A DNA stretch of 64,000 bases from Halobacteriovoraceae bacterium (GCA_963719505.1 CAVRCF010000001.1:480001-544000), one strand, 5' to 3'. Positions 10,250-61,157 are shown, counted from the stretch's first letter. Notes: a model not told the origin generated them from the letters alone. A program made the numbers and translations.

Positions 10250-10252
10250 TAA

Positions 10253-12664: not shown

Positions 12665-12693
12665 AAAAACTAAATTAAAAAAGTTAAATGGAG

Positions 12694-13514: not shown

Positions 13515-13556
13515 TAATAATTGCCAAAGTCTAAATTGCTGAACAGAATAGACTAT

Positions 13557-45403: not shown

Positions 45404-47116
45404 TTATTCAACTTTTAAATATTTATAATTGTTGTAGATCAAATCTGACTGTCTAAAATTTTTGATAGTGTCGTGAGACAAGATATAGTTCCTAGAATAA
45501 TACTGCATAATCCAAGGAAGCTTCTTGTGGACGATATCCTCAATTTCTTTAAGTATTTGATTTTTTTCTAATTCAGAGCTGGCTTCATTATACTTGAGGA
45601 AAAGGGCATCGACTTTCTTACTTGAAAAATAAGTAGAATTTGGACCAGGAGAATGGTTTTTAGTCAGGAGTAGTTGAAGTGTATTTTCAGCATCTGGATA
45701 GTCCATTGCCCAACCACCTTGCCAAAACTGCAATTGACCAGTTCTAGCTTTGGTTAAGAATCCAGGAAAGCTATTAACATTAATTTTAACTTTTATATCA
45801 ACTTTCTCTAGCTCAATCTTTATAAACTCTGCCATCTGTTTTGAAACCAATGAATTTCCCCTTACATCATACTGAAGTTCAGGAAGACCTCGACCTTTGG
45901 GATATCCAGCTTCAGCTAAAAGTTTTTTGGCCTTTGATGGATTGTAGGAATAGGGAGTTTTTCTCGAAGGATCGTATCCTGGAACTCCCGGAGGATAAAT
46001 TGAATTTGCTTTAAGTGAAATATTATTTGAAAAAACTTTTATATATTTTTCGATATCGACGGCATGGGCAATTGCAGAACGAAGTTTGTAGTTTTTACCA
46101 ACGACTTTATCCTTCATATTGAAGGCCAGCCACCAGTAAGTGAGAGTTGGCTCCACTTGCAGGTTTATACCCTTCTCTTTAAATTCTTTTTTTAAGCTAC
46201 CTTCTTGATTCAAAACAATAGGGAAGTGATCTTTAGTGAGAACAATAAAATCTAATTTTCCTGATAAGAAGTTTAGCCATCTGGTTTGAGCTTCTTTAAT
46301 AATATTAAATTTTACTCCTTGAATAAAAGGAATACTTTTTCCCTTGTCAGCTAAAAGATTATTCTCATAAGAGGTTCTATCCCCTTTGTTGGGATAGGTA
46401 CTTGGGTGATAATCTGTAAAACGAGTAAGAGTAATATTTAAATTCTTGTTCCATTCTTTTAAATAAAAGGGACCTGTACCAATTGAGCCTTGAGTAAGAT
46501 CATTTTTGGTGGCCCTAATAACTTCTTCTGTGACTGGAGTTGTAAACGACATTGCTAGAGCAAAAAGTATTTGGGGATAAGGTTTTATCAACTTTATGAC
46601 AAGAGTGTGGTCATTTAAAGCTTTTAGCCCTTCAATATCAAGGGAAAAGAATTTGGACATATCATTTCCAGCCTTAGCTCGAAACTCATTTAGGCCTACA
46701 ATCTTCTCATCAAATAGCCACCATCCGTTACTTTTAGTCGGTTTGAAAGCAAGCCTTTTAATTTGGTTTATAAAGTCTTGAGCTTTGAGGGTTCTGTCTT
46801 TTTTTAAGTGTGGAGAGTCATGAAACTTAATATTTTTTTTAATTTTTATCGTATACTTCAGTCCCTCGTTTTCAATCATAGGCATTTCTTGCGCCAATAA
46901 GGGTTTAAGGTGATAAGGTCTAATCAGATAATCGTATTCAAAAAGAGTCTCATGGATTTGATAGATCACTTCAGCCGAGACGGTGTCATATGACATTGCG
47001 GGGTCTAAAGTAGGAACGTTGGTTGAGAGTGCGACGTTGATATATTTTTTCTTTGTCGATTCTATTTCTTCGCATGAAGCAAAGACAATAGTGAGGAGGA
47101 GAAATACTATTTTCAT
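45404..47116 (-). CDS. ABC transporter substrate-binding lipoprotein, family 5 (OppA/DppA-like)
   Basis: Lipobox FASC, TLDPA, GTGPF, LRSAIAHAVD, AKKLLAEAGYP, GWAMDYPD. Confidence 0.9.
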   Translation of the reverse strand: MKIVFLLLTIVFASCEEIESTKKKYINVALSTNVPTLDPAMSYDTVSAEVIYQIHETLFEYDYLIRPYHLKPLLAQEMPMIENEGLKYTIKIKKNIKFHDSPHLKKDRTLKAQDFINQIKRLAFKPTKSNGWWLFDEKIVGLNEFRAKAGNDMSKFFSLDIEGLKALNDHTLVIKLIKPYPQILFALAMSFTTPVTEEVIRATKNDLTQGSIGTGPFYLKEWNKNLNITLTRFTDYHPSTYPNKGDRTSYENNLLADKGKSIPFIQGVKFNIIKEAQTRWLNFLSGKLDFIVLTKDHFPIVLNQEGSLKKEFKEKGINLQVEPTLTYWWLAFNMKDKVVGKNYKLRSAIAHAVDIEKYIKVFSNNISLKANSIYPPGVPGYDPSRKTPYSYNPSKAKKLLAEAGYPKGRGLPELQYDVRGNSLVSKQMAEFIKIELEKVDIKVKINVNSFPGFLTKARTGQLQFWQGGWAMDYPDAENTLQLLLTKNHSPGPNSTYFSSKKVDALFLKYNEASSELEKNQILKEIEDIVHKKLPWIMQYYSRNYILSHDTIKNFRQSDLIYNNYKYLKVE

Positions 47117-49713
47117 TATAAAGCCTTGAGTTGTTCTTCTACTTTAAGAAGAAATTGTTCAGTTTTTCCAATAGAGCCAGATCCCTGTGCCATATCTGGG
47201 CGACCGCCACCACGTCCATCAACAATAGCTTGAGCATTCTTTATGACCGCTGAACAATTAATCGACTTGTTAGACTTGTGAGTTCTTAAAATATAGGAGA
47301 GCTTCTCGCTGTCTTCTGTGTAAATGAGTAAAACATCTTTTTCATTTTGATCTACAAATTTATCAGAAAGGTTTCGAAACTCCTTAGGGTCTCCATCTTT
47401 TAGATGGACACTTACGAGTCCAAAATCTTTTCCTATATCTTTTGTATTATTGAAAAGACTTTTTCCTTGGGCTGATTGAATTTTATCTTTTAGTCCCTTA
47501 ATTCTTTTGCTTTTAGCTTTGAGGTCACTTTGAAGTGCCTCAATCTTTTTGAGAACCTCGTCACCTTTGACGGAAAAATCGAGTTCTATTTGCGATAAAA
47601 TCTTTGATCTTTTATTGAGATAATTAAAAGCGGAAGAGCTTACGAAAGCCTCAATTCTTCTTACTCCACTTGAAAGTGAGGTCTCAAAATTAATGACAAA
47701 CTGACCAATTTCTTTTGTCGATGAAACGTGTGTTCCTCCACACAACTCAATAGAGAAGTCTCCCATTTCTAAAACTCTAACTTCATCACCATACTTTTCA
47801 CCAAAAAGTGCCATGGCTCCTTTTTGGTTAGCTTCATCTTTGGTCATTACTGATGCTGTAACATCTAAGTCTTCTTGAATCTTTAAATTAACAAGCTTTT
47901 CAATAGATGTAATTTGTTTCTTTGTTAGTGCTTCGGGGTGTGTAAAATCAAAACGTAAACGATCAAATGAAACACTTGAACCAGCCTGTTTTACGTGATC
48001 TCCAAGAACATTAATAAGAGCAGCTTGAAGAAGGTGAGTTGCTGAGTGATGATAAGTCGTTTGCTGTCTTGTGCCTTTGGACACGACAAGATCTGCAGTC
48101 TCACCGACTTTTAGTGTCGAACAGTCTTGTGTTGTGATATGTGCGAATAAGCCTTCTACAGGCTTAATTGTATCAACGATGTCAATCGAACCATTGATGC
48201 TTCCTTTGTCACCAGCTTGTCCACCACCCTCACCATAAAAAGGTGTCTTGTCGAAAAATAGATAAGTCGTATCTTCAACAATTTCTTTGTGAAGTAATTT
48301 AGATTTCGCATTCAATTCTTTGTAACCAGTAAAGACGGTTTCACCAATAGATTCTTTAATCTTATAGAAAACTTCAATATTCGAATCGTCAGCGGCAAAC
48401 TTATTTGTTTTTCTTGAACTTTTTCTTTGTTCTTCCATTGATTCTTCAAAACCAGAAGTGTCTATTTCTATCTTTCTTTCCTTTAAAATGACCTCTGTTA
48501 GATCAAAAGGGAAGCCGTAAGTGTCGTATAGTTTGAAGGCTATCTCTCCAGGAAATACATTGTTTTTGATATTGGGAATTTCCTTTTTTATAAGATCCAA
48601 CCCTGTCTTAAGCGTTTGTCTAAACTTGTCTTCTTCAATCTTTAATAATTTTTCTGCTAAAGAGGCGTTGGCCTGGTTTTGTGGATATTCATTTGCAAGA
48701 GATTCAAAAACTGATGGAACAAGTTGATAAAACTTAGAGTCACTCACCCCAAGCTCTTCCATATTTCTGATGGCTCTTCTAATAATCCTTCTGAGAACAT
48801 AGCCTCTGCCATCACTTGCTGGCATAACTCCATCAGTGATAAGCATTGTGGCTGACCTTATATGATCGGCGATGACTCGCATGCTTGAAGTGTATTTTGT
48901 GTCGCTATACTTTTTGCCAGATAGTTTTTCAATGGCGTTTATAATAGGGGTGAATGCATCAGAATCGTAGTTCCAGTATACATTTTGCATAACAGCTGCA
49001 ATTCTTTCAAGGCCGGCTCCCGTATCGACCGAAGGTTTTGGAAGACTTCTTCTTTTTATGTCAGAGCCCTCTTTGTACTTTTCATATTGCATGAAAACGA
49101 GATTCCAGATTTCTACGTACCGTCCCTCATCGTTTAAAAGGCACTCGCTAGTGTCAGCTCCATCAGAATATGCTTCTCCGTGATCATAAAAAATTTCACT
49201 ACAAGGACCACAAGGACCTGTGTCACCCATCTCCCAGAAGTTATCCTTGTCTCCGAGAAAGAAAATTTTCTCTTTAGGGACACCCTCTTGTTCCATCCAA
49301 ATATCAGCGGCTTCTTGATCAGTGGTATGCACAGTCACATATAACTTTTCCTCAGGTATTTTTAATTCCTTCGTTAGAAATTTCCATGCAAAGTGGATAG
49401 CTTCTTTTTTAAAGTAGTCGCCAAAGGAGAAGTTTCCACACATTTCAAAAAAAGTATGGTGCCTGGCCGTGAATCCAACGTTTTCAAGGTCATTGTGCTT
49501 ACCTCCGGCCCTAACACATTTTTGAATGGTTGTGGCTCTTGGATTGCTGGCTTGGGCTTTGCCGGTAAAATAGTCCTTAAACTGATTCATTCCAGCATTT
49601 GCAAAAAGAAGAGTTGGGTCGTTTTGGGGAACTAGTGAAGAAGACTCCAGTTTGTCATGTCCATTATCGGTAAAAAATTTTGTAAATCGATCTCTAATTT
49701 CTTGAGCTTTCAT
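47116..49713 (-). CDS. alaS: Alanyl-tRNA synthetase
   Basis: DPTLLFANAGMNQFK, RHHTFFEM, DTGAGLER, HSATHLL, ELCGGTH, GRGGGRPDMAQG. Confidence 0.98.
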   Translation of the reverse strand: MKAQEIRDRFTKFFTDNGHDKLESSSLVPQNDPTLLFANAGMNQFKDYFTGKAQASNPRATTIQKCVRAGGKHNDLENVGFTARHHTFFEMCGNFSFGDYFKKEAIHFAWKFLTKELKIPEEKLYVTVHTTDQEAADIWMEQEGVPKEKIFFLGDKDNFWEMGDTGPCGPCSEIFYDHGEAYSDGADTSECLLNDEGRYVEIWNLVFMQYEKYKEGSDIKRRSLPKPSVDTGAGLERIAAVMQNVYWNYDSDAFTPIINAIEKLSGKKYSDTKYTSSMRVIADHIRSATMLITDGVMPASDGRGYVLRRIIRRAIRNMEELGVSDSKFYQLVPSVFESLANEYPQNQANASLAEKLLKIEEDKFRQTLKTGLDLIKKEIPNIKNNVFPGEIAFKLYDTYGFPFDLTEVILKERKIEIDTSGFEESMEEQRKSSRKTNKFAADDSNIEVFYKIKESIGETVFTGYKELNAKSKLLHKEIVEDTTYLFFDKTPFYGEGGGQAGDKGSINGSIDIVDTIKPVEGLFAHITTQDCSTLKVGETADLVVSKGTRQQTTYHHSATHLLQAALINVLGDHVKQAGSSVSFDRLRFDFTHPEALTKKQITSIEKLVNLKIQEDLDVTASVMTKDEANQKGAMALFGEKYGDEVRVLEMGDFSIELCGGTHVSSTKEIGQFVINFETSLSSGVRRIEAFVSSSAFNYLNKRSKILSQIELDFSVKGDEVLKKIEALQSDLKAKSKRIKGLKDKIQSAQGKSLFNNTKDIGKDFGLVSVHLKDGDPKEFRNLSDKFVDQNEKDVLLIYTEDSEKLSYILRTHKSNKSINCSAVIKNAQAIVDGRGGGRPDMAQGSGSIGKTEQFLLKVEEQLKAL

Positions 49714-49819
49714 GCCTCTCCTACTAAAAAATAACTACATTATTTTTAACACATTTCGCTTCTTAATGAAATTTTGAAATTTAGGCTTTTACGCGATTCT
49801 ATGGCAAAATAGTTCTACT

Positions 49820-50812
49820 ATGAAAATTACAGTGATCATATTAACCCATCATCGTCTGGAGCTCGTCAGGGCTTGCTTAAAAAGTATCGAAGAGCAACAC
49901 TTTGTGCCTTATGAATTAGAAATTGTTGCACTGCTTAACGGCCAAGATCAGGAAACATTCGATTATTTGCAGAACTATCAAAATCTAAATGAAAGCTTTA
50001 AATTCAGTGCCTTAGATCAATCCGTTCCCGTCGGTGAAGCGAGGAATATCCTCATTGAGCATTCCACAGGAGAATATATTTGCTTTATTGATGACGACGT
50101 AGAACTCCCACCAAACTATTTTAAGCTGGCCAGTCAGATCATTGAAAACGACAGTCAAATCGATGTTTTTGGTGGCCCCGACCAGATGAAAGATTCTAGC
50201 TCAGTCTTTCAAGAGGTTCTCTCAAGTGTCATGGAAAGCTTTTTTGCTATGGGCCCGACTGCGAAAAGGCATAGCAAAAAATTTCAAGTCCAAAAGGGTT
50301 CAGAAATAAATCTTATTTTGTGTAATCTTTGGATGAAAAAAGAAATTTTCTCACAAGGATACAAATTTCCCAGTGGCTTTCGAAGAAATGAAGAAAATAT
50401 TTTAATTGCCCATCTACAAAGAGACGGTAAGAAACTTATTTATAACCCTGAACTCTTTGTTTACCATGAAAGAAAGAGTTCAATTAAGAAACTAATAAAA
50501 GTGACCTATTTGTCTGGTCAATTTAGAACTTATGGCTTTTTTAAAGAGCCGGCGACATTTAACTTCGTTTTTATGATTCCACAAATCTTTCTTTCACTTT
50601 TTATAATTTTTAGGTTCATGGGTCCTGCGTTTATTAAAGTCTACTGCCTCGCATACCTCCTTACTATCTGTTTAATAGCAATTTTTCTTGTAAGAAGAAA
50701 GTTTTCAATACCCAAGGCTATATCAGCTATGCTTATACTTATGAGCTATCATTTTTCATATTCGATTGGACAGTTTAGTGGTTATGTAAAAAAGTTAAGA
50801 GAGGTTTTATGA
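49820..50812 (+). CDS. GT2 family glycosyltransferase with C-terminal TM helices
   Basis: ITVIILTH, GEARN, YICFIDDD (DxD), RRNEE, VYHER; hydrophobic C-terminus. Confidence 0.9.
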   Translation: MKITVIILTHHRLELVRACLKSIEEQHFVPYELEIVALLNGQDQETFDYLQNYQNLNESFKFSALDQSVPVGEARNILIEHSTGEYICFIDDDVELPPNYFKLASQIIENDSQIDVFGGPDQMKDSSSVFQEVLSSVMESFFAMGPTAKRHSKKFQVQKGSEINLILCNLWMKKEIFSQGYKFPSGFRRNEENILIAHLQRDGKKLIYNPELFVYHERKSSIKKLIKVTYLSGQFRTYGFFKEPATFNFVFMIPQIFLSLFIIFRFMGPAFIKVYCLAYLLTICLIAIFLVRRKFSIPKAISAMLILMSYHFSYSIGQFSGYVKKLREVL

Positions 50813-51819
50813 AAACAAGTTATACCTTTTTTGGATTTAAAGTCCTGGTTAGATCAGAAGAAGAAGAATTGATAAAAGTTATCGACCAAAATTTTTCTCT
50901 TTTTAAGAATAATGACAACAGTTCTGCAGATCTTATTATTGATGCGTCCTTGGACGTAAGCCTCGAAGGTAAAATTCCAAATGATCTCGTTTCAATAAAA
51001 CAGTCTATCAACTCTGTTAGTTACCAAGAAAATAGTGTGAGATACAATGACTACTATGGGAAAGCTATAACTAAGATTGATTACGCCGAAAATAAAGCTG
51101 AGATTTGGGCAAGTGATTTAAACAGCCTCCACGAACTAACTTACCTTTTAATAATGTCAAGACAGGGGAAGTGGTGTGACAAAAAAGGAATTCATAAAAT
51201 CCATGCCATGGGAATAAAAGGGGAAAATAAGAATCTTTTACTCATGCTTCCTATGAAAGGTGGAAAGTCTACAATGTTTGCAAGATTTTTGAGCGAGACA
51301 GAATTCAGTCTTATATCTGATGATTCTCCTGTTATTAATCATGATGGCAGTGTCTCGAATTTCAATATTAGATTTGGTTTAGAAAACAAACCCATGTATG
51401 AACCTTTATTAAGCAAGATTGATAAGCAATACGTTTTTTCCCTCTTTAGAGAGCAATATGGAGAAAAAACTTTAATTGATTTTAAGGCGTTTGAAAGTAG
51501 GATTGAAGAGCCTCACCTTGAGTCAATACTGATACAAGGTGTACGGGTTAATAATGATAAAATAGAAATAAAAAAAATAAATAAGATAAGAATGTTTAAT
51601 TATGTTTTTATCAATATGACTATTGGTGTTGGACTTCCAATGATCATTGAATACTTTATTGAGAATAGCCTTCGGGATCACGCTGGCAATATCCTAATTT
51701 TTTTAAAAAGGCTCAAAGCAAGTCTTATGTTGATCGCTCGTTCAGATTGTTACTTTGCCCTAATGGGAAAAGACATACAGAAGAATTTTAAAGCATTAGA
51801 GGCTTTAGCGAGGAAGTGA
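50809..51819 (+). CDS. HPr-kinase-related P-loop kinase
   Basis: IHAMGI, LLLMLPMKGGKST (variant Walker A) and LISDD occur in the HPrK order; overlaps the GT2 stop codon. Confidence 0.7.
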   Translation: MKTSYTFFGFKVLVRSEEEELIKVIDQNFSLFKNNDNSSADLIIDASLDVSLEGKIPNDLVSIKQSINSVSYQENSVRYNDYYGKAITKIDYAENKAEIWASDLNSLHELTYLLIMSRQGKWCDKKGIHKIHAMGIKGENKNLLLMLPMKGGKSTMFARFLSETEFSLISDDSPVINHDGSVSNFNIRFGLENKPMYEPLLSKIDKQYVFSLFREQYGEKTLIDFKAFESRIEEPHLESILIQGVRVNNDKIEIKKINKIRMFNYVFINMTIGVGLPMIIEYFIENSLRDHAGNILIFLKRLKASLMLIARSDCYFALMGKDIQKNFKALEALARK

Positions 51820-53355
51820 ATATAGTTTCATCTCGTTCATTTTGAATCCTTGTAGCCCAAGAGAATCTAAATAGGAAAAATACCTCTTTTTTGTTGTGTT
51901 AAACCCTTCCAGATCTTTTAACTCGTAGTGAAGGAACAAAAGAGTTTTAAAGATTGGAACCTTATTGTGAGCTTCTGCTAAGAGTTTGAAACTTAATATT
52001 TCTGCAGATCTATAATTTCTTTTTTCAATTTCAATCTGGATGAGGTACTCGAGAAGGATTTTCGATTTAGGAGTCTCTGACAAATTTTCAAAGAAGTAGT
52101 CACGAGTTTTGTTAAGTCTGATATTATTTGAGAGAGTTTGACCTACGAGCAGTATTAAAAGAAGTGAGCAAATTGAAAGAAATATTTTTTGTTTCTTCAT
52201 GTCAAATGTTGAAAGCGCTAATAGAAAAAATGCAAGTGATGTATAAAACCAGTGGTCAGCCACTGACGAGTGCTCCATGTAGGTAACATAAAAGAGTCCA
52301 CTTGTTGGAATGAAAAATAGCATTGAGGCGAGTAAATACTTTCTTGTTGGTTTAAAGAGTATAAAAACAGTCAAGAAACCAAAGCAAAAGATAATATTGA
52401 TAAAATGACTTAACTTACTAAATGGAGGATAGACGAGCCAGTTTTTAGTAAGACCAAGGGAAGACTTTACGTAAAAGCCAAGGTGGCTAAAAAAGTTGAG
52501 AGATTTCATCCCTATGACCTCTAAGCTCATCTGGTTTGGTAAAAATGAGACAAAGTAATCGATATATCTTGATGACAAACTTAACTGATCTCTCTTTGAC
52601 TGTAACTCAGAGGTCGTCTTCATTTTTTTCTCATCTGCTCTGTAGTCTGGTGCCTCAGAATAGAACTCACGAACGTTTAATGTATTTGAGCCTGATGCTG
52701 TTACTCCTTTGATGTTCTGAATACCAACGTAAATTGATAGTGAAATGAAGGGAATAAGAATAAGAATATTATGTTTTATTGATCTATTTTTTGTCGGAAT
52801 GAGAACAGGAAAGAGAATTCCTATCGATTTCGTAAAGAGAGACACAGCAAATAGCCAGAAACTTTTATGAACCGAAGTGTTGATATAACGAAAAGCTAGA
52901 ATAATAAATGTAGTGGCTAAAAGTGTTTTTAGTTGAAAAATCCAAAAAATATTTTCAACAGCTAATGGATGAAATAAAAAAAGTAAGAAAATGAACTTCG
53001 AGTTAAAATGACCACTCCTGTCACAGAGATTTTTTAATAAATAGGCATTTAGAAGGTGAATACTTGCGTTTACTAGGCGATAAAGTAAAAACTTTGTCCC
53101 AAAAACCTTAAAGAGAAGCCAAAATACACTATAGGTTAGAGGCCACGCCTTGTAAGAGTCTGACGTAAGATCCCAAAAAACGAAAGGATGATTCGTACTG
53201 GTAACGTGACTATTCTTAAAGATATAGACGTAATCATCCCCAAATGGAGTCGATCCAGCTGAAATTAAGTAAATTAGGTAAAACACAGAGATGACGACAG
53301 GGAAAAATATCTTGTTCTCAGTTACTTTTATCGCCAAATTGTTATAAAATTCCAT
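51805..53355 (-). CDS. TMTC-like (GT-C fold) integral membrane glycosyltransferase
   Basis: GDDYVYI (DD motif), WPLTY, NASIHLLN, FLFHPLAVENIFWI, LFTK, VADHWFY; many TM segments and a TPR-like tail. Confidence 0.75.
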   Translation of the reverse strand: MEFYNNLAIKVTENKIFFPVVISVFYLIYLISAGSTPFGDDYVYIFKNSHVTSTNHPFVFWDLTSDSYKAWPLTYSVFWLLFKVFGTKFLLYRLVNASIHLLNAYLLKNLCDRSGHFNSKFIFLLFLFHPLAVENIFWIFQLKTLLATTFIILAFRYINTSVHKSFWLFAVSLFTKSIGILFPVLIPTKNRSIKHNILILIPFISLSIYVGIQNIKGVTASGSNTLNVREFYSEAPDYRADEKKMKTTSELQSKRDQLSLSSRYIDYFVSFLPNQMSLEVIGMKSLNFFSHLGFYVKSSLGLTKNWLVYPPFSKLSHFINIIFCFGFLTVFILFKPTRKYLLASMLFFIPTSGLFYVTYMEHSSVADHWFYTSLAFFLLALSTFDMKKQKIFLSICSLLLILLVGQTLSNNIRLNKTRDYFFENLSETPKSKILLEYLIQIEIEKRNYRSAEILSFKLLAEAHNKVPIFKTLLFLHYELKDLEGFNTTKKRYFSYLDSLGLQGFKMNEMKLYSLPR

Positions 53356-53423
53356 ATATAATAAAATATATTAATCTCTAACTAATTGAAAGTTAAATAT
53401 AATAGGTTGCGTATAGGAGTTCG

Positions 53424-56120
53424 ATGGAGTCCTTAATTTCAGGTCTGCAGCATTTACGGAATATACCAGGTTTGAGAAAACTTATTCGCCTCTATTATAG
53501 AAAAGGCGAAGCTAAATTAATTAGTAAGCTGTCTTCAATAGAATCCATTGGTTCAATTTACCTGAAGTCCAATTTAAACTCAGCAAGCTTCGATTTCGGT
53601 TTAAGTGATCTAGACTTTGTTATCGTTGTAAAAAATAAAGAACAAGAAAAAGAAATTTCACATATTTTTTCTATCCTAAGCCGTCTCTATCCTTTTATTA
53701 AAGATTATGATTTGTTTACCCTTAATGAGTTAACTTTTTTGACTGAGTTTGGTACTACAAAGTTTTCTAATCATGATGAATGGAAGTTATGTTTTGGAGA
53801 GAAACTTGAGTTGCCCAACTATTATTATCACCCTTTTAAATTTTATTGTGATCAAATTGATGAACTCTATTTTCTCGTTCTTTGGTTATATGAAAACTTA
53901 AAGGTTAGAAAAAGCGGATATCGTAAGATTGCGATTATTCGAACTTTAAAGAAAATTTTCTCTGTCATAGAGTGGATAGAAAATCCAAAAAAGTTTTCTC
54001 GACCAATGAAACAGAAGTTCTCACAAGATGAGACCTTATTGCTTGAAAGTGTTTACAAATCTTCTTTCAAAGATAATTGGATTAATTATATTCAAGGTAT
54101 AAAATTCTTTGAAGAGTATAGTTCACTTATTCAAAGCTCTTTTATGGTTGGTGAAGACCTCTCCTTTCCCCGAGACTTCGAAAGATATTGTTTTTCTGAT
54201 CACATCTCTTCAAAAAAAGTTGTTCATATTAGCCAGGCTCTTTACGAGAATTTTTATCTGTGTGGATCAATCGACCCAAGTCTTTTAGAGCGGGTTTCAG
54301 ATAGGAACCCTTCTCATCCCTATGGTGCCCTTTTAGAACTTAGAGCACATGCACTTGCTATAAGTGGACTTCATTCAAGTTACAATTTTTCAAAAAGATC
54401 ATTGAAATTAGAGACCGTCGTCGCAGACGTTCACAAAATTAACTCCACTTTTAAGGAGCCAATAAAATTCCTTGGTTCTAGTAACTTAGTTTCTGTCCAT
54501 TGGGGTGAGTCAAAGCAAAGAGAGATTGCTGTTGCAGTGGCGAAGCATTTCCTCACAAAGCAAAAAGGGAACTTTAATCATATTCATGTGTCTTTGGGTG
54601 AGGACAAGCAATGCTTCTATGGAGTGGATGAAATCTGGATTGATTGTGATCCAGGGCAGGCATGGCATAAAGAAGCCTTATATAATTTTGCTTTCTATTT
54701 TTGCTTTGGAGCTAAAAAATATATCTTTTCTGATGCAGAGGTTTATTGTGAAAAGGAAACGTGGCTAGAATCAACATTTAACTCTCTTGATCATAAAGAC
54801 TTTGTTCACGGTTTTCGAAAAGTGGTCGACTCTGAAGATTCTACTTACAATGATTATTCATGGACCTATAAACAGACTAAACTTAGTGGTGGTAACTCAG
54901 CTCAGGGGCTTGTCTGGGGAGTCACGTCCAAGCTTCTTCAGAGAATTGGTGGTATTCCCGACTACTGTCCTGATGGGAGTAACGACTCCTTGTTTGTTGA
55001 GACAGTAACAGGAATTCCCATGGGCCTTTCGAGTAGTGCATCTTGGTACTACGGAGATTCCTTTTCAGTGGTAGAAGATGTCGAGTATGGATTTGCTGAT
55101 TTTGAAGTCATCCACGTCAATCATGGAAAACAGAGGCTTTACTCAAACAGAATGGAAGTTATGGGGATAGTTGGGAATTATCTTAGATCGTTATTTTCAA
55201 AAAACTCGATTGGTATATTTCAAAATGTTAATAAGACTAACAAGATTCCGCCCTTTGGTGATCTCTTTGAGTTATCTATAAATAAGACTTTGCCACTTCT
55301 CAATAACCTCAGAAAAGAAAATTTCATTAAAGACCCAGACCTACTTTTTTTGCGCTTTGGTGATGGATTGGAGTCAAATATTCGTTTCATTAACTGCCTT
55401 GGTGTTTGTGAACATTTAGACGGAGAAGATATTTTAAAAATAGGATCTTTCGTTAACGAAAAGAGTAAGATTGTTATTCACTATAAACTAAAAGATCTAA
55501 TTTTGACTGAACTTCGCGCTGTTCGTTTTATTTTTAACCCACTAGAGGAAAAAGAACAAAAGCTAACTGGCAAGGCTTTTATTGATTGGAAAGAAGAGCC
55601 ATTTTGTAACAACCTAGCACGAGTAAGTACTGAAGTACTCCCTTTCGAGTATTTAGTTCTTGGGCTTAAAGATATATCAGAGCTAAGCTTTGAATTTGAG
55701 TTAAACTACCTAAAACCAAATCAAGTCATTCATCTCCCACGTCCACAGGAGAGCTCTATTAGTATGGTTCACTCTTGGGATGAAGAAAGTGTAATGGATA
55801 ATATTATTCATAATTCAAAGGACGAATATATTGAAATGCCTGACTTTCTCGAGTCTGATCACTGGTATGCTTTAGAGATAGATTGCTCTAACGTCAAAGA
55901 CCAGTGCTACTCTGCAGGCTTTTATTTCGGAGCTGATCTAAAGTCAGTAACGCAACTTCGATACTTCTCAAATACAACTGATAAATATCAACGAATTCAA
56001 GTCTTACTGACAAAAGACTTAGGTCTTTTAAAGCTTGGTTTACACTTCGAAAAAGCTGGTGGCGGGGAATCCATTAGTATTAAGATTCTCAAAAGGTCTA
56101 ATTTAAGTTCCAGTCAATAG
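53424..56120 (+). CDS. Fusion of a Pol-beta-type nucleotidyltransferase-like domain and a GT-A-like glycosyltransferase domain
   Basis: N-terminal SIYLKS...GLSDLDFVIV; central WHKEALYN...YIFSDAEV...GLVWG...DGSND...IHVNHG; unassigned beta-rich C-terminus. Confidence 0.6.
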   Translation: MESLISGLQHLRNIPGLRKLIRLYYRKGEAKLISKLSSIESIGSIYLKSNLNSASFDFGLSDLDFVIVVKNKEQEKEISHIFSILSRLYPFIKDYDLFTLNELTFLTEFGTTKFSNHDEWKLCFGEKLELPNYYYHPFKFYCDQIDELYFLVLWLYENLKVRKSGYRKIAIIRTLKKIFSVIEWIENPKKFSRPMKQKFSQDETLLLESVYKSSFKDNWINYIQGIKFFEEYSSLIQSSFMVGEDLSFPRDFERYCFSDHISSKKVVHISQALYENFYLCGSIDPSLLERVSDRNPSHPYGALLELRAHALAISGLHSSYNFSKRSLKLETVVADVHKINSTFKEPIKFLGSSNLVSVHWGESKQREIAVAVAKHFLTKQKGNFNHIHVSLGEDKQCFYGVDEIWIDCDPGQAWHKEALYNFAFYFCFGAKKYIFSDAEVYCEKETWLESTFNSLDHKDFVHGFRKVVDSEDSTYNDYSWTYKQTKLSGGNSAQGLVWGVTSKLLQRIGGIPDYCPDGSNDSLFVETVTGIPMGLSSSASWYYGDSFSVVEDVEYGFADFEVIHVNHGKQRLYSNRMEVMGIVGNYLRSLFSKNSIGIFQNVNKTNKIPPFGDLFELSINKTLPLLNNLRKENFIKDPDLLFLRFGDGLESNIRFINCLGVCEHLDGEDILKIGSFVNEKSKIVIHYKLKDLILTELRAVRFIFNPLEEKEQKLTGKAFIDWKEEPFCNNLARVSTEVLPFEYLVLGLKDISELSFEFELNYLKPNQVIHLPRPQESSISMVHSWDEESVMDNIIHNSKDEYIEMPDFLESDHWYALEIDCSNVKDQCYSAGFYFGADLKSVTQLRYFSNTTDKYQRIQVLLTKDLGLLKLGLHFEKAGGGESISIKILKRSNLSSSQ

Positions 56121-56769
56121 GCTTTTTGTTTTGAGAAAGTAAGTACTCGTTAGTTAATGAAAAGTGTTTATTCCCTCTGAATTTTGTGACTGAGAATGGA
56201 GATGGATGTGCAGATTCTAAAACGAGGTGCCTGCTTCGATCTATATGTTCACCTTTCTTCTTTGCATCATTTCCCCATAAGATAAAAACTAACTTTGAAC
56301 CTTTTTCATTTAGATTTCTGATAATCTCGTCTGAGAATATTTCCCATCCCTTTTTTCTGTGAGAGCCAGGTGATGATTTCTCGACTGTAAAAACACTATT
56401 GAGTAAAAGGACACCTTGCTTGGCCCAGTAGGTAAGGTCTCCGTGATCTGGAGGAGATATTTCTAAGTCGGTTTCAATCTCTTTATAAATATTTTTTAAT
56501 GAAGGAGGAATCTTTTGATCTTCCTTAACAGAAAATGAGAGGCCATGTGCTTGACCTTGGCCATGATAAGGATCCTGTCCAATAATAATAACCTTAGTCT
56601 TTTCGAGATCGGCATATTTAAAAGCATTAAAAATATCATGCGCTGGTGGAAAAACTTCCTTTTTCTCATTTTTTTCTTTCTCTAAAAAGGCGAGAAGACT
56701 TTTGAAGTAATCCTTACAAACTTCTTTCTCTATAATTTTGAGCCAGTTCTTTTTAATCCCATGAAACAT
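56098..56769 (-). CDS. ung: Uracil-DNA glycosylase (family 1)
   Basis: GQDPYH, AHGLSFS, PPSLKNI, GVLLLN, HPSP. Start probably ATG 56769. Confidence 0.96.
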   Translation of the reverse strand: MFHGIKKNWLKIIEKEVCKDYFKSLLAFLEKEKNEKKEVFPPAHDIFNAFKYADLEKTKVIIIGQDPYHGQGQAHGLSFSVKEDQKIPPSLKNIYKEIETDLEISPPDHGDLTYWAKQGVLLLNSVFTVEKSSPGSHRKKGWEIFSDEIIRNLNEKGSKLVFILWGNDAKKKGEHIDRSRHLVLESAHPSPFSVTKFRGNKHFSLTNEYLLSQNKKPIDWNLN

Positions 56770-57202
56770 CGTCAACTCCAAGTTCCCTTGAAACAAGGTT
56801 TGGTTCAAATCCTCTTGCTATTAGATAGCGCAAGACTTTTAGCATGCTTTTGCTGTCGTTATCTTTGGATCTTTGTCTGATAGTCTGTTTTAACACATCC
56901 AACTCAAGTATCTGATATTCATCTCTCAATGCGTTGATTTCATCTTCACTAAGGATTAAGCTTTCAGTCTTGAGTTTTGCTAAAATATATCTATTTCCAT
57001 AGCCATTTTTGAGTAAGACGACAGCCCTATTTTCAGAATATCTTCGGTCATTAAGATAGTTTTTCTGTTTTAGTGCTGCAAGTGCATCATCAATTTCTGT
57101 TTTTGAAAATTCTTTCTTCTCTAGTGCAAGTCTAAGTTTACTAGATGAATAGTCTTTTTTTGAAAGTAGTTTTACTGATGTTTGTAAAGCGTTTGATTTC
57201 AT
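56753..57202 (-). CDS. recX: Regulatory protein RecX
   Basis: LLSKKDYS, YLNDRRY, YLIARGF; immediately downstream of recA. Confidence 0.88.
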   Translation of the reverse strand: MKSNALQTSVKLLSKKDYSSSKLRLALEKKEFSKTEIDDALAALKQKNYLNDRRYSENRAVVLLKNGYGNRYILAKLKTESLILSEDEINALRDEYQILELDVLKQTIRQRSKDNDSKSMLKVLRYLIARGFEPNLVSRELGVDDVSWD

Positions 57203-57260: not shown

Positions 57261-58376
57261 TTATTGTAATTTTTTAGACTTCTTTGTTTTTTTCGCTGGA
57301 GCTGCTTCTACTTCTGATTCCTCAGCAATTTCGCCTGTCTCCATATTTACTGCTGCTACTGCATCTGGGTCAGTGGCTAAACCATGCTTCGCTAAAACTT
57401 TGATTCTAATCTCTTCCATGACCTGTGGGTTATCCATCAAGAATTTTTTAGAATTTTCACGACCTTGTCCAATTTTCTCATTATTGTATGAGTACCAAGC
57501 ACCAGCTTTTTCAACAATGTTCTCTTTAACAGCAAGATCAAGAAGATCACCCTCTTTAGAGATACCAGTTCCGTACATAATATCGAATTCAATTTCTCTA
57601 AATGGAGGTGCAACTTTATTTTTAACAACTTTTATTCTTGTTCTGTTTCCAGTGACATCATCACCTTCTTTGATGGCACCAATTCTTCTAATATCCATTC
57701 TTACAGAAGAGTAGAATTTAAGGGCATTTCCACCAGTTGTAGTTTCAGGGTTACCAAACATAACACCAATCTTCATTCTTAGTTGGTTAATAAAGATAAC
57801 TGTACAGTTTGATCTTGAGATTGAACCTGTTAGTTTTCTAAGGGCTTGTGACATAAGTCTTGCTTGAAGTCCCATGTGTGAATCACCCATGTCTCCTTCA
57901 AGTTCAGCTCTTGGAGTAAGTGCAGCAACTGAGTCGACAATGAGAAGATTAACTGCGCCAGATCTTACTAACATATCTGTAATTTCTAGTGCTTGCTCAC
58001 CACTGTCTGGTTGAGAAATTAGAGTATTTGGAATATCTACTCCAAGATTCGAAGCATAAGTAGTATCAAGAGCGTGCTCAGCATCTACAAAAGCTACTGT
58101 ACCACCAGCTTTCTGACATTCAGCAGCGATATGAAGTGTAAGAGTTGTTTTACCAGAAGACTCAGGTCCGTAGATTTCAACAATTCTTCCTTGAGGAATT
58201 CCACCGATACCAAGAGCAAGATCTATTCCTAGTGATCCAGTAGAAATGGCTGGCATTTTTTCTTAGGGCTCCCATCAAGTTTCATGATTGCACCTTTACC
58301 AAATTGCTTTTCAATTCCTGATAGTGCAAGGTCTAAAGCTTTCTTTTTGTTGTCGTCTGAAGTTGTGTTGTGCCAT
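57261..58376 (-). CDS. recA: Recombinase RecA; 5' region carries two compensating single-base indels
   Basis: [41 protein letters not shown] 58376 follows AGGGAG. The N-terminal [27 protein letters not shown] lies in a shifted frame between ~58370 and the A-run at 58256-58261. Confidence 0.95.
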
Positions 58377-58487
58377 GATTTTTTCTCCCTCAATTTATAA
58401 TTGTGTGATTTAAAGTTATCACTGTTGTTAGTTAGCCAAGCAATTTACGGATAAAGTACGGATGAGGTAAATACCCGAATTATTTGA

Positions 58488-60279: not shown

Positions 60280-61157
60280 GATTCAATAAATTCTATCATT
60301 CTTTCGTTCACAAACTTGGGAAAATCAACTTGAGGAACATGACTCCCATTTTTAACAAGGTAGAGTTCAGCGTTCGGTAGTGAGTCAGCTAGAAGTCTTT
60401 GAAGGTAATTGGGAATGACCTTGTCTTTGTCGCCACCAATAACAAGTGTTTTCGTTTTAATAATTTCGACCTCACCTAATATTTGATGGATTTGCATCTG
60501 ATCGAGAAGTTGAAAAAAAAGCTCGGGTCCAAGTTGACCTAATTTATTAAGGTAGACCTCTATAAATTCACTGGGAACAGTTTTGATATTAAAACCCCCA
60601 GCGTGGATAAGCTTCTTAATGATAGGGTTCCAGCCACCAAACTTCCAAAAGGTTTTAAAAGCGGCGGGGTAGGCTTTTAAAAGTTTTTTTATATAGGGTT
60701 GGACTTGGTCTACAACATTACTGTCGAACATGATGTCGTAAACAGGTATTGTCGTTCCCGATATGAGAATCTGCTTTGACGCTACATCTGGAAAGCGTTT
60801 ATTAAACTCAAGACTAATATTTACTCCCATACTGTGCCCAATTAAAATAGGATTTTTTATCTTTAAATGGTTGATGAGTCCGTAAAGATCATTTGTCATG
60901 TTCTCAAAGGTAATCGAATCAAGATCCTCGATGCCACTTGACTGATAATGTCCCCGATAGTCATGAACTAAGATTCTGTAACCTTTTTCATCAAAGTAGT
61001 CTAGCTGATGAACCCAGTGGTGGTTGCTGCAGACAAGACCGTAATTGAAAATAAGAATTCCCTCGTTGGATTCATGTTCGAACGGATCGAAGTTTGTTTG
61101 AAAAAATATCTGTTGGTTATCAAGGGTTTTAAAATAGTTTGTATAGAGGTTATTCAT
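60276..61157 (-). CDS. Alpha/beta fold hydrolase
   Basis: DYRGHYQS, GHSMG nucleophile elbow, GDKDKV, GSH. Confidence 0.9.
   Translation of the reverse strand: MNNLYTNYFKTLDNQQIFFQTNFDPFEHESNEGILIFNYGLVCSNHHWVHQLDYFDEKGYRILVHDYRGHYQSSGIEDLDSITFENMTNDLYGLINHLKIKNPILIGHSMGVNISLEFNKRFPDVASKQILISGTTIPVYDIMFDSNVVDQVQPYIKKLLKAYPAAFKTFWKFGGWNPIIKKLIHAGGFNIKTVPSEFIEVYLNKLGQLGPELFFQLLDQMQIHQILGEVEIIKTKTLVIGGDKDKVIPNYLQRLLADSLPNAELYLVKNGSHVPQVDFPKFVNERMIEFIES

What the first reader, a model, noticed from the sequence alone, without database searches (positions are those of the whole stretch)
49820..56120. Four-gene kinase + nucleotidyltransferase + three-glycosyltransferase block: candidate new protein phospho-glycosylation system
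Seen: a GT2 overlapping an HPrK-like kinase gene, a TMTC-like GT-C enzyme, and an NTase/GT-A fusion are packed into 6.3 kb, overlapping each other and ung. The block sits between recA-recX-ung and alaS. Known: recA-recX-alaS is a common conserved gene order. GT-C enzymes transfer sugar from lipid-linked donors, which membrane GT2s often make. In paeninodin/pseudomycoidin-type lasso peptide clusters, HPrK-like kinases and nucleotidyltransferases add phosphate and sugars to Ser. Inference: with no lasso cyclase, precursor or Wzx/Wzy present, the block may modify surface proteins. The S/T-rich pilin and metzincin in this window are possible targets.
Basis: partly seen in the sequence, partly recalled or inferred. 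Interest (0 to 1): 0.8.

Follow-up and report, generated by a model that had tools for sequence, protein, structure and literature searches.

The report
Kinase and glycosyltransferase surface-modification gene block
Four tightly packed genes in a predatory-type bacterium encode a kinase, a nucleotidyltransferase and three sugar-transferring enzymes that probably decorate surface proteins such as pilus-like fibres, though the actual target has not been tested.

Summary
Four intact ORFs fill 49820-56120 between alaS and ung. They encode a membrane GT2, a P-loop kinase of the PEPCK/HprK fold, a TMTC/TfpW-like GT-C with a TPR tail, and an 898-aa fusion of a Pol-beta nucleotidyltransferase, a GT-A domain and a beta-sandwich region. 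Three of the four have no Pfam or NCBIfam hit of their own; fold models and profile searches identified them.

Comparative genomics changes the picture. The conserved unit is the GT2-kinase pair, adjacent in 44 of 50 kinase loci across seven families of the phylum. The GT-C is in 22 of 50 loci and the NTase domain in 13 of 50. The full set at the recA/alaS site occurs in only four genera.

Loci with the GT-C often carry prepilin-type genes (10 of 22, against 2 of 28 without it). Six of these are fibres with an S74 chaperone end. ABC-2 or Wzx exporters also recur nearby.

Best reading (confidence about 0.4): an envelope glycosylation pathway that uses lipid-linked sugar and a TfpW-like transferase acting on pilin-like surface proteins, with kinase/NTase tailoring that may add phosphate-linked sugar. 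No lasso or RiPP genes are present here. A glycan or LPS acceptor is not excluded. This looks like a new variant of known kinds, of moderate interest.

The parts
49714..49819 (.). 106-nt intergenic region between divergent alaS and the GT2 gene; presumed promoter region of GT2-kinase
   Evidence: ORF coordinates and sequence. The promoter scan was not above chance, so the promoter is only inferred.
49820..50812 (+). Membrane-anchored family-2 glycosyltransferase (330 aa) with a C-terminal hydrophobic region
   Evidence: PF00535 at 3.7e-17, 63.2 bits. D91-D92-D93 and 16 other columns are invariant in 22 orthologues. Hydrophobic segments lie at about 249-290. Nearest solved relatives by profile are TarS, chondroitin synthase, GalT1, PglI and RmlT.
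50809..51819 (+). P-loop kinase of the PEPCK/HprK fold (336 aa), translationally coupled to the GT2
   Evidence: ATGA overlap with a ribosome-binding site. AF2 pLDDT 93.7. PEPCK Z 17.1 and HprK/P Z 10.3-10.7; Foldseek PEPCK E 5.5e-9. G151-G152-K153, H129, H132 and S170 are invariant and D172 nearly invariant in 42 sequences.
51805..53355 (-). GT-C-type membrane glycosyltransferase with a C-terminal TPR-like tail (516 aa), TMTC/TfpW-like
   Evidence: Eight or more hydrophobic segments. D40-D41 are invariant after the first segment. PMT_2 hits in 4 of 18 homologues and TPR hits. Atlas neighbours are TMTC_DUF1736 and PMT-TPR clusters at 0.97.
53356..53423 (.). 68-nt divergent intergenic region between the GT-C gene and the 898-aa gene
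   Evidence: AGGAG ribosome-binding site 5 nt before the ATG at 53424.
53424..54443 (+). N-terminal Pol-beta-type nucleotidyltransferase plus helical domain (aa 1-340) of the 898-aa protein
   Evidence: S61, D62, D64, D94 and D96 are invariant in 7 orthologues. The profile hits minimal NTase 1ylq at E 1.4e-4. PF01909 reaches its cut-off score in 5 of 16 N-terminal or full-length relatives scanned.
54471..55262 (+). GT-A glycosyltransferase domain (aa 350-613) of the 898-aa protein
   Evidence: VIA: SpsA Z 15.0, rmsd 2.7, 186 aligned; TarP, TarS, RmlT and heparosan/chondroitin synthases at Z 13-14.6. Foldseek RmlT E 6.8e-7. D437 (D-A-E), H564 and H567 are invariant.
55341..56120 (+). C-terminal all-beta region (aa 640-898), probably two beta-sandwich, carbohydrate-binding-like domains
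   Evidence: All-strand secondary structure at 640-891. Foldseek lists SGBP-B, CBM22 tandem and xylanase J chains. Aligned ranges are not printed, so assigning these hits to this part is inference.
56098..56808 (-). ung (flank; 23-nt convergent overlap with the 898-aa gene)
   Evidence: PF03167; coordinates.
47116..49713 (-). alaS (flank)
   Evidence: PF01411 at 7.9e-194.

Best explanation
The block is a lineage-specific expansion of a phylum-wide two-gene module (membrane GT2 + PEPCK/HprK-fold kinase). It serves glycosylation of the cell envelope, most likely of periplasmic or surface proteins.

Proposed mechanism; only the enzyme identities are shown, every step is inferred:
1. At the cytoplasmic face, the GT2 puts a sugar on a lipid-linked (polyprenyl-phosphate) carrier or on a short lipid-linked glycan.
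2. The coupled kinase phosphorylates that intermediate or its acceptor.
3. The nucleotidyltransferase-GT-A fusion elaborates the phosphate with further sugar. This follows the kinase-then-nucleotidyltransferase logic of pseudomycoidin tailoring. Its beta-sandwich tail would hold the glycan.
4. After export, the GT-C transfers the sugar(s) onto Ser/Thr of a protein acceptor. It resembles TfpW of Pseudomonas pilin glycosylation in having a DD motif in the first loop and a periplasmic TPR tail.

The best candidate acceptors are prepilin-type fibre proteins. In related genera these are encoded inside the block. In this genome they lie elsewhere (contig C5, 466178-469712).
For: Enzyme identities rest. 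Catalytic motifs are kept in all five domains.

Gene-pair conservation:
- GT2 lies within 300 nt of the kinase in 44 of 50 loci: 32 of 38 in the window's own family and 12 of 12 in six other families.
- The kinase occurs in 76 of 151 genomes of the family and 46 of 201 of the phylum.

NTase link:
- An NTase-domain protein lies next to the kinase in the block-type loci.
- The same holds in 6 of 7 Gemmatimonadota loci.

Pilin link:
- GT-C and prepilin-type genes occur together in 10 of 22 loci, against 2 of 28 loci without GT-C.
- Six of these proteins combine a prepilin N-terminus with an S74 SDxxxK chaperone end.

Precedents:
- TfpW is a GT-C with a DDX motif and a periplasmic TPR domain, encoded next to pilA (passages of bioRxiv 10.1101/2020.04.19.049825).
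- GT2 + GT-C operons act through a lipid-linked sugar (passages of PMC5836110).
- A kinase then a nucleotidyltransferase add phosphate and hexose to a Ser (passages of PMC8498205).

The kinase's sequence relatives are all peptide/protein-associated HprK-like families: HprK_rel_A/B and ScmC (PF27840).
Against: - No substrate is shown.
- In this window the block has no pilin-like gene. The nearest prepilin-type gene (12062-12664) is 38 kb away.
- The GT2 profile finds TarS, PglI and chondroitin-synthase-type enzymes, and no GtrB/DPMS/ArnC-type lipid-phosphate sugar synthase at E<=0.01.
- No flippase gene lies in the block.
- The kinase's whole-length fold match is to PEP carboxykinase, a small-molecule enzyme.
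- The G-S motif of the NTase is degenerate in this genus (K-S-N against the consensus K-G-S).
- Kinase homologues also sit beside Wzm/Wzt-type ABC-2 exporters (L010, L017, L043, L052, L058, L060) and, in Gemmatimonadota, beside Wzx-like flippases and GT4 enzymes. This fits a polysaccharide product as well.
- Related genomes are not independent, so the locus counts overstate the statistical weight.
Confidence: 0.4

Rival explanations
1. The module builds or tailors a non-protein envelope glycan: an LPS/O-antigen-like, teichoic-acid-like or capsular polymer. The GT2 and GT-A domains add sugars to a lipid-linked polymer. The kinase adds a phosphate, as a decoration or a chain-end cap, and the NTase-GT-A extends it. 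The GT-C modifies the polymer or lipid A in the periplasm, as YfhO or ArnT do.
For: - ABC-2 (Wzm/Wzt-like) exporters lie directly beside the kinase in at least 6 of 50 loci.
- A Wzx-like Polysacc_synt protein and a GT4 lie beside the kinase in 3 of 3 Gemmatimonadota loci scanned, and a phosphodiester glycosidase (NAGPA) in one.
- GT4 genes lie nearby in L019, L021, L056 and L064.
- Both GT-A-type domains are nearest to the wall-teichoic-acid glycosyltransferases TarS, TarP and RmlT.
- GT2 + GT-C pairs glycosylate lipoteichoic acid (PMC5836110).
Against: - The window block has no initiating phosphoglycosyltransferase, polymerase, flippase or exporter, and sits among housekeeping genes.
- The GT-C has a TPR tail and is adjacent to prepilin-type genes in 10 of 22 loci.
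- Exporters and flippases are also needed to make lipid-linked donors for protein glycosylation, so their presence does not discriminate.
Confidence: 0.3
2. The kinase and the nucleotidyltransferase form a salvage and activation route for an unusual sugar or acid (X to X-phosphate to NDP-X). The fused GT-A domain and the GT2 then use NDP-X as donor. In this reading the kinase acts on a free small molecule, not on a protein or lipid-linked glycan.
For: - The kinase aligns over both of its domains with PEP carboxykinase, a small-molecule kinase-type enzyme (Z 17.1, 282 residues; Foldseek).
- NTase and GT-A are fused in one chain, which suits channelling an activated donor.
- Several conserved basic residues in the kinase, including invariant K220 and R301, could bind a phosphorylated small molecule.
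Against: - Most kinase loci have the GT2 but no NTase domain (13 of 50 have it), so activation by this NTase cannot be the kinase's general role.
- From general knowledge, known sugar-1-phosphate nucleotidylyltransferases use a different fold. The NTase here is of the minimal Pol-beta type.
- The kinase's sequence relatives are HprK-like and ScmC-like proteins of peptide-modification cassettes.
Confidence: 0.15
3. The block is a RiPP-type peptide tailoring system related to the phosphorylated and glycosylated lasso peptides, acting on a small ribosomal peptide.
For: - There are weak HprK_rel_A/B and ScmC similarities.
- One of 50 loci (L020) places the GT2-kinase pair beside a LanB-like dehydratase, a radical SAM/SPASM enzyme and a 94-aa protein. 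I judged that protein PqqD-like by eye only.
Against: - No cyclase, protease, recognition element or precursor lies in or near the window block.
- The intergenic gaps are 106 and 68 nt, which leaves no room for a precursor gene.
- 49 of 50 loci lack RiPP genes among the ORFs scanned.
Confidence: 0.05

Closest known systems
TfpW pilin glycosylation of Pseudomonas aeruginosa group IV strains
   Same: [quoted passage not shown] The window's GT-C has an invariant D40-D41 after the first membrane segment and a TPR-like tail. Its orthologues lie beside prepilin-type genes in 10 of 22 loci.
   Different: No sequence comparison with TfpW could be made, because no TfpW sequence was available from any tool. 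The window GT-C is shorter (516 against 646 aa). No pilin gene is adjacent in this genome. The partners here (HprK/PEPCK-fold kinase, GT2, NTase-GT-A) are not those of the D-arabinofuranose pathway.
Kinase plus nucleotidyltransferase tailoring of lasso peptides (paeninodin, pseudomycoidin)
   Same: An HPr-kinase-like enzyme phosphorylates a Ser hydroxyl, and a nucleotidyltransferase then adds one or two hexoses to the phosphate (passages of PMC8498205). The window likewise pairs an HprK-fold kinase with a Pol-beta-type NTase domain.
   Different: No lasso cyclase, protease, precursor or transporter is present. The kinase fails the Hpr_kinase_C and HprK_rel models. Here the NTase is fused to a GT-A and beta-sandwich domains. 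The kinase's constant partner is a GT2, not the NTase.
Two- or three-component periplasmic glycosylation (GtrA/GtrB/GtrC; CsbB-YfhO; GtlA-GtlB)
   Same: A membrane-associated GT2 and a GT-C are encoded together. The GT-C would move sugar from a lipid carrier to an acceptor outside the cytoplasm (passages of PMC5836110).
   Different: The GT2 profile did not retrieve GtrB-type enzymes. No GtrA-like flippase lies in the block. The GT-C is of the PMT_2/TPR kind, not YfhO. The kinase and the NTase-GT-A have no counterpart in these systems.
TMTC and PMT protein O-mannosyltransferases
   Same: Both are multi-pass GT-C enzymes with an acidic first-loop motif and TPR repeats. Atlas neighbours include TMTC_DUF1736 and PMT-TPR clusters, and PMT_2 hits occur in homologues.
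   Different: The window protein itself reaches no Pfam threshold. Its TPR region is short. Donor and acceptor are unknown.
MAT (mosaic adhesive trimeric) fibres of Bdellovibrio bacteriovorus
   Same: The fibre genes beside the block in related genera end in an S74 chaperone/protease domain with the SDxxxK motif, as the S74 MAT fibres do (passages of PMC10769870).
   Different: MAT fibres start with a signal peptide and a conserved beta-rich domain. The fibres here start with a prepilin-type cleavage/methylation motif. The words 'pilin' and 'glycosyl' do not occur in that paper's main text.

Membership tests
Glycosyltransferase family 2 (PF00535), first ORF | Match to the family model above its curated cut-off | tested here: met
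   63.2 bits against a cut-off of 23.3
Glycosyltransferase family 2 (PF00535), first ORF | DxD metal/nucleotide-sugar motif | tested here: met
   D91-D92-D93 invariant in 22 orthologues
Polyprenyl-phosphate sugar synthases (GtrB/DPMS/ArnC type) | Closer sequence similarity to these enzymes than to other GT2s | tested here: inconclusive
   The profile against PDB sequences at E<=0.01 listed 28 sequences (TarS, chondroitin synthase, GalT1, PglI, RmlT, TarP, SunS and others). None was of this type. No fold model of the GT2 was made.
HPr kinase/phosphorylase (PF07475, TIGR00679) | Match to the family model | tested here: not met
   The window protein has no hit even at E<=10 or E<=1. Distant homologues score about 15 bits against a cut-off of 33.3.
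HPr kinase/phosphorylase (PF07475, TIGR00679) | Fold of the catalytic C-terminal P-loop domain | tested here: met
   1ko7, 3tqf, 1knx and 1jb1 at Z 10.3-10.7, 128-132 residues, rmsd 2.6-3.1
HPr kinase/phosphorylase (PF07475, TIGR00679) | Walker A loop with the upstream His and downstream acidic pair (motif layout recalled from the literature, not taken from a call) | tested here: met
   H129, H132, G151-G152-K153 and S170 invariant, D172 nearly invariant. Equivalence to the HprK residues is inferred.
PEP carboxykinase-like superfamily | Two-domain fold (N-terminal domain plus P-loop domain) | tested here: met
   1ii2 at Z 17.1, 282 residues aligned over model residues 1-336. Foldseek E 5.5e-9, TM 0.60.
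Lasso-peptide phospho(glyco)sylation cluster | Lasso cyclase, leader protease/RRE and precursor peptide gene in the cluster | tested here: not met
   None among 16 ORFs of 42.8-63.7 kb. The block's intergenic gaps are 106 and 68 nt.
GT-C glycosyltransferases (PMT_2/TMTC/TfpW kind) | 8-13 membrane helices with an acidic DDx/DxD motif in the first outer loop | tested here: met
   Eight or more hydrophobic segments. D40-D41 invariant in 18 sequences. Feature definition taken from the passages.
GT-C glycosyltransferases (PMT_2/TMTC/TfpW kind) | Match to PMT_2 or a related model | tested here: inconclusive
   The window protein has none. 4 of 18 homologues match, best E 1.4e-7. Atlas feature score is 0.97 to TMTC/PMT clusters.
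GT-C glycosyltransferases (PMT_2/TMTC/TfpW kind) | GT-C fold | not tested
GT-C glycosyltransferases (PMT_2/TMTC/TfpW kind) | C-terminal TPR domain | tested here: met
   The profile hits consensus TPR proteins at E 2.4e-6. TPR families are found in homologues.
Pol-beta-type nucleotidyltransferases (PF01909) | G-S motif, DxD pair and third acidic residue | tested here: inconclusive
   S61, D62, D64, D94 and D96 are invariant. The G-S motif is K-S-N in the window protein against the consensus K-G-S. PF01909 is absent on the window protein and reaches its cut-off score in 5 of 16 relatives. 1ylq E 1.4e-4.
GT-A fold glycosyltransferase (middle domain of the 898-aa protein) | GT-A fold with a DxD-like motif and a C-terminal His | tested here: met
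   SpsA Z 15.0. D437-A-E439, H564 and H567 conserved. PF00535 passes its cut-off within the matched region in 4 of 14 relatives.
TfpW-type pilin glycosylation locus | GT-C gene adjacent to a type IV pilin gene | tested here: not met
   In the window, the nearest prepilin-type gene is at 12062-12664. It is met in relatives: 10 of 22 loci with GT-C.

The most novel reading that the evidence does not exclude
Across the phylum Bdellovibrionota, a PEPCK/HprK-fold kinase and a membrane GT2 form an obligate pair that makes a phosphate-bearing lipid-linked sugar. In several marine predatory genera this pair was joined with two further enzymes. One is a TfpW-like GT-C. The other is a nucleotidyltransferase-GT-A fusion that adds phosphodiester-linked sugar, the chemistry so far known only from the lasso peptide pseudomycoidin. 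Together they would phospho-glycosylate prepilin-type fibre adhesins with S74 chaperone ends. That would be a previously undescribed protein phospho-glycosylation pathway acting on likely prey-recognition fibres.
Probability: 0.15. Interest if true: 0.8.

Novelty: new variant of a known kind. Interest (0 to 1): 0.55.

Why it matters
- Three of the four proteins belong to families with no model match and no name beyond 'hypothetical' or 'putative nucleotidyltransferase' in the sources seen. Yet the kinase occurs in about half of the sampled genomes of its family and in seven families of the phylum.
- A nearly constant GT2-kinase pairing implies a step in envelope glycan chemistry that has not been described.
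- If the acceptors are the prepilin-type S74 fibres, the system would link glycosylation to the fibre adhesins that predatory bacteria use on prey. S74 MAT fibres are shown to serve this role in Bdellovibrio (PMC10769870).
- It would also extend the kinase-then-nucleotidyltransferase phospho-sugar chemistry of a lasso peptide to proteins or glycans.
- If the acceptor is a polysaccharide instead, it is an ordinary, though unannotated, surface-glycan tailoring module.

Tried and rejected
- Direct family scans gave nothing for three of the four proteins: Pfam at E<=10 and NCBIfam at E<=1.
- Sequence searches of the PDB gave nothing for the kinase, either as a single sequence or as a 42-sequence profile. 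They also gave nothing useful for the GT-C and 898-aa single sequences.
- The word-index homologue search found only 4 relatives of the 898-aa protein. The exhaustive profile search was needed and found 867 at E<=1e-3.
- The promoter and terminator scan was not above shuffles: 24 against 21.0 +/- 4.6, and 4 against 4.1. No operon claim rests on it.
- GC content gives no clear sign of recent transfer: block 0.32-0.38, flanks 0.34-0.40.
- No canonical HPr kinase model match was found in the genome, which is 83.5% complete.
- The conserved ~140-aa membrane protein that accompanies the GT-C in 7 related loci has no homologue in this genome (E<=10).
- Earlier findings of the scan gave nothing by place or by sequence.
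- Sequencing runs: none was listed, and no RNA holder was listed.
Each time the queue was full, so it never ran. Whether the pair binds is open.
- Literature: 'HprK-related kinase' returned 0 papers. The five-term search 'phosphoglycosylation, nucleotidyltransferase, kinase, serine, bacteria' returned one general review. No paper on this gene set was found by these searches. Supplements were not consulted.
- I rejected a lasso/RiPP reading for this locus because it has no cyclase, protease or precursor.
- I rejected the 'canonical HprK' label because the model is not matched and the N-terminal domain follows PEPCK instead.

Full report
WHAT IS THERE

The region 49820-56120 holds four ORFs with no room for others:
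- 49820-50812(+), 330 aa
- 50809-51819(+), 336 aa
- 51805-53355(-), 516 aa
- 53424-56120(+), 898 aa

The left flank is alaS, 47116-49713(-). The right flank is ung, 56098-56808(-), followed by recX, recA and pgpA (Pfam). The first two genes are translationally coupled: ATGA, with an AGAGAGG ribosome-binding site. The kinase gene and the membrane-protein gene converge with a 15-nt overlap. The 898-aa gene and ung converge with a 23-nt overlap. The membrane-protein gene and the 898-aa gene diverge across 68 nt. The ORF lengths equal those of homologues elsewhere. This matters because the assembly carries at least one frameshift nearby, in recA.

IDENTITY OF THE FOUR PROTEINS

1. GT2. PF00535 scores 63.2 bits against a cut-off of 23.3. 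An invariant DDD and a set of family-specific invariant residues appear in 22 orthologues. A hydrophobic C-terminal region lies at about 249-290. By profile, the nearest solved relatives are TarS, chondroitin synthase, GalT1, PglI, RmlT, TarP and SunS. GtrB/DPMS/ArnC-type enzymes were not among the 28 sequences listed at E<=0.01. NCBIfam gives only far sub-threshold hits: HpsN in 19 of 22, EpsD in 18 of 22 and MftF in 13 of 22.

2. Kinase. It has no Pfam or NCBIfam hit and no PDB hit by sequence or profile.
- The 42-sequence alignment gave a confident model: pLDDT 93.7, pTM 0.90.
- Foldseek's first 50 rows are all PEP carboxykinases, best E 5.5e-9 and TM 0.60.
- The Foldseek-independent aligner gives PEPCK 1ii2 at Z 17.1 over 282 residues spanning both domains. 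Four HPr kinase/phosphorylases reach Z 10.3-10.7 over about 130 residues of the C-terminal domain. The next unrelated P-loop kinases reach Z 5.5.
- Distant homologues hit Hpr_kinase_C, HprK_rel_A/B and ScmC weakly (E 0.2 to 6e-5). Six of the 65 homologues carry PF27840, which the Atlas names ScmC.
- The Walker A loop (G151-G152-K153), H129, H132 and S170 are invariant and D172 is nearly invariant. I recall this layout as that of HprK/P; the correspondence is inferred.
- The protein is therefore a PEPCK/HprK-superfamily kinase but not a member of the HprK family proper.

3. Membrane protein. It has no direct hit.
- It has eight or more hydrophobic segments and an invariant D40-D41 after the first one.
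- PMT_2 hits occur in 4 of 18 homologues, best E 1.4e-7. TPR families are found in homologues, and the profile hits consensus TPR proteins at 2.4e-6.
- Atlas neighbours at 0.97 include TMTC_DUF1736 and PMT-TPR clusters.
- I accept it as a GT-C with a TPR tail. Its fold was not modelled.

4. The 898-aa protein. It has no direct hit. An exhaustive profile search found 867 proteins at E<=1e-3 and showed a modular build.
- The N-terminal part (profile positions 2 to about 490) recurs in proteins of 742-1388 aa with other C-termini.
- The middle part (about 375-650) recurs widely on its own.
- Among relatives, PF01909 (nucleotidyltransferase) reaches its cut-off score in 5 of 16 N-terminal or full-length ones. 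PF00535 passes inside the matched region in 4 of 14 middle-domain ones.
- The 39-sequence profile hits the minimal nucleotidyltransferase 1ylq at E 1.4e-4.
- The model has pLDDT 88.9 and pTM 0.84. It shows a GT-A domain at 350-613: SpsA Z 15.0, TarP 14.5, TarS 13.7, RmlT 13.3 (Foldseek). It also shows an all-beta C-terminal region at 640-891. Carbohydrate-binding-module chains in the Foldseek list probably correspond to this region, but that assignment is inference because ranges are not printed.
- Catalytic residues are kept: D62, D64, D94 and D96 in the NTase; D437, H564 and H567 in the GT-A.
- The NTase G-S motif is degenerate in this genus.

COMPARATIVE GENOMICS

The single 898-aa protein was found in 5 of 41 related genomes. 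The same gene set lies between alaS and ung/recX in G002 (same genus) and in G013 (another genus).

Searches with profiles:
- The kinase is in 76 of 151 genomes of the family (30 of 69 genera).
- It is in 46 of 201 genomes of the phylum, in seven families.
- The 898-aa profile is in 28 of 151 family genomes. It is full-length only in two genera. In two more it is an N-terminal-domain match directly beside the kinase.

I fetched 50 kinase loci (plus the window) and scored them with local HMMs built from my alignments.
- GT2 orthologue (E<1e-30) within 300 nt of the kinase: 44 of 50. This is 32 of 38 in the family and 12 of 12 in six other families, over a GC range of 0.37-0.62.
- L012 has a more divergent GT2 next door, and L017 has one at 1069 nt. 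L046, L047, L050 and L052 have none.
- GT-C in the locus: 22 of 50.
- NTase domain (E<1e-4): 13 of 50.
- The full set at the recA/alaS site appears in the window, L007, L008, L014 (no alaS or ung), L015, L025, L026 and L055, which represent four genera.

On a kinase tree these block kinases fall in two well-supported groups, compatible with one origin. That single origin is weakly supported (73/18). The kinase of G001, from the window's own genus, sits in another clade and at another locus.

In G012 and G014, recA and alaS are about 600 nt apart. That is room for recX only, which I did not inspect. No block is present there. The block, with ung, is therefore an insertion into a conserved housekeeping string.

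Elsewhere the GT2-kinase pair stands between dnaJ/Peripla_BP_6 and PNP_UDP_1/mreB genes. Pfam shows this for L009; gene sizes are similar in L011, L018, L022, L023, L024, L028, L040, L044, L045 and L048.

WHAT THE NEIGHBOURS SAY

Only selected neighbour ORFs were scanned: 80, 28, 29 and 58 proteins.

(a) Prepilin-type genes.
- In L008, L014, L015, L025, L026 and L055, the GT-C is followed by two genes. The first is a ~140-aa membrane protein ending in K-C-[FY]-G-x-I. The second is a 472-639-aa protein with a prepilin cleavage/methylation motif at its N-terminus, a Ser/Thr/Gly/Asn-rich middle, an S74 chaperone domain with SDxxxK, and a coiled-coil end. Peptidase_S74 is shown by Pfam for 2 of 2 tested. 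The motifs are seen in all six.
- L013, L052, L056 and L066 have other prepilin-type genes near the GT-C. N_methyl or TIGR02532 hits support this.
- Count: 10 of 22 loci with GT-C, against 2 of 28 without. These come from at least seven genera and two families, but kin are not independent.
- In the window genome the block has neither gene. The small protein has no homologue in the genome. Two prepilin-type fibre paralogues (539 and 577 aa) lie on contig C5, with about the first 200 residues 33% identical to the L025 fibre and no S74 end. A PilA-like pilin is in the window at 12062-12664.

(b) Exporters.
- ABC-2 (Wzm/Wzt-like) pairs lie next to the kinase in L010, L017, L043, L052, L058 and L060. 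L046 has an ABC ATPase only.

(c) Gemmatimonadota.
- In 6 of 7 loci around kinase homologues, an NTase-domain homologue (478-533 aa) lies about 3-4 kb away. The seventh contig is cut short.
- In the 3 loci scanned, the kinase is followed by a Wzx-like Polysacc_synt protein and a GT4. One has a phosphodiester glycosidase (NAGPA) alongside.

(d) One locus, L020, is RiPP-like. It has a LanB-like protein, a radical SAM/SPASM enzyme and a 94-aa protein that I judged PqqD-like by eye only.

INTERPRETATION

What is shown:
- Five catalytic domains with intact motifs.
- A very stable GT2-kinase pairing.
- Recurrent but not constant links to a TPR-bearing GT-C, to an NTase domain, to lipid-linked-glycan exporters and to prepilin-type proteins.

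What is inferred is the flow of chemistry. The closest working models are these:
- TfpW is a GT-C with a DDX motif and a periplasmic TPR domain, encoded next to pilA. Its loss abolishes pilin glycosylation (passages).
- GT2 + GT-C operons act through a C55-P-sugar intermediate (passages).
- In pseudomycoidin tailoring, an HPr-kinase homologue phosphorylates a Ser and a nucleotidyltransferase adds hexose to that phosphate (passages).

I therefore rank the readings as follows:
- Envelope protein glycosylation with a possible phosphate-linked sugar, prepilin-type fibres being the best candidate acceptors: 0.4.
- A non-protein glycan acceptor: 0.3.
- A small-molecule activation role for kinase + NTase: 0.15.
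- A RiPP system: 0.05.
- The remainder is unassigned.

AGAINST MY READING
- No pilin-like gene lies in this block.
- The GT2 does not look like a GtrB-type enzyme by sequence.
- The kinase's best whole-length fold match is a small-molecule enzyme.
- The NTase G-S motif is degenerate here.
- Exporter and GT4 contexts fit polysaccharide synthesis.
- No expression or biochemical data exist.

All domain calls, the overlaps, the insertion between recA-recX-ung and alaS, and the absence of lasso and Wzx/Wzy genes are confirmed. The claim of a four-family system needs revising: it is a two-gene core with optional modules. The pilin target idea gains indirect support from relatives. The metzincin was not examined. 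Phospho-glycosylation remains a hypothesis.

NOVELTY AND INTEREST

The parts resemble known kinds (GT2/GT-C periplasmic glycosylation, TfpW, lasso kinase/NTase tailoring). The combination and the constant GT2-kinase pair were not found in print by my searches. The proteins carry no functional names in the sources seen. I rate it a new variant of a known kind, with interest 0.55.

Noticed in passing
L008:14027-15916, L014:1890-3341, L015:3011-4429, L025:15837-17381, L026:3538-4977, L055:14926-16845: These are fibre-like proteins of 472-639 aa. Each combines a prepilin-type cleavage/methylation N-terminus with a C-terminal S74 intramolecular chaperone (SDxxxK) and a coiled coil. The architecture differs from the Bdellovibrio MAT fibres, which start with a signal peptide and a beta-rich domain. 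The genes lie inside the glycosylation block of related genera.
   Followed up: partly
L007:11906-12274, L008:13461-13895, L014:3597-4019, L015:4628-5041, L025:15138-15581, L026:5114-5536, L055:14349-14795: A conserved protein of about 122-148 aa has one N-terminal membrane segment, two conserved Cys and a C-terminal K-C-[FY]-G-x-I motif. It always lies next to the GT-C gene. It has no homologue in the window's genome (E<=10), and its function is unknown.
   Followed up: partly
window 57261-58400 (-): recA is frameshifted. Residues equivalent to 24-62 of the G002 RecA are encoded in another frame than the rest, with the switch at a lysine/A-rich run. The assembly has 5 contigs but only 83.5% marker completeness. 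This is therefore probably a homopolymer assembly error, and other ORFs of the genome may be affected.
   Followed up: partly
L020 (G095:C15) 4153-15773: Here the GT2-kinase pair sits in a RiPP-like cluster. The cluster has a DegT aminotransferase, a radical SAM/SPASM enzyme, a choline-kinase-like protein, a MobA-like NTP transferase, a 94-aa PqqD-like protein (judged by eye) and a LanB-like 851-aa protein.
   Followed up: partly
L033-L039 (Gemmatimonadota MAG contigs): A conserved cassette holds an HprK/ScmC-like kinase, a Wzx-like flippase, a long GT4 (631-678 aa in the three loci scanned) and a 478-533-aa NTase-domain protein. In L039 a phosphodiester glycosidase (NAGPA) lies next to it, which hints at phosphodiester-linked sugars.
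   Followed up: partly
genome contig C5:466178-469712 (outside the window): Two tandem prepilin-type fibre paralogues (539 and 577 aa, no S74 end) are flanked by FHA-like genes. They are candidate acceptors of the block in this genome.
   Followed up: partly
L013 (G001, same genus as the window): Within the window's genus, one genome keeps the GT2-kinase pair at another locus and in another kinase clade. Two prepilin-type genes, a GT-C and a short 315-aa NTase-like gene lie nearby. This suggests that the module has been replaced or moved within the genus.
   Followed up: partly
window 59041-60279 (+) and 61154-61564 (-): A 412-aa protein has a weak RelA_SpoT domain hit (30.7 bits). A 136-aa FHA/YscD-like protein lies just beyond recA-pgpA. 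Neither was examined further.
   Followed up: no
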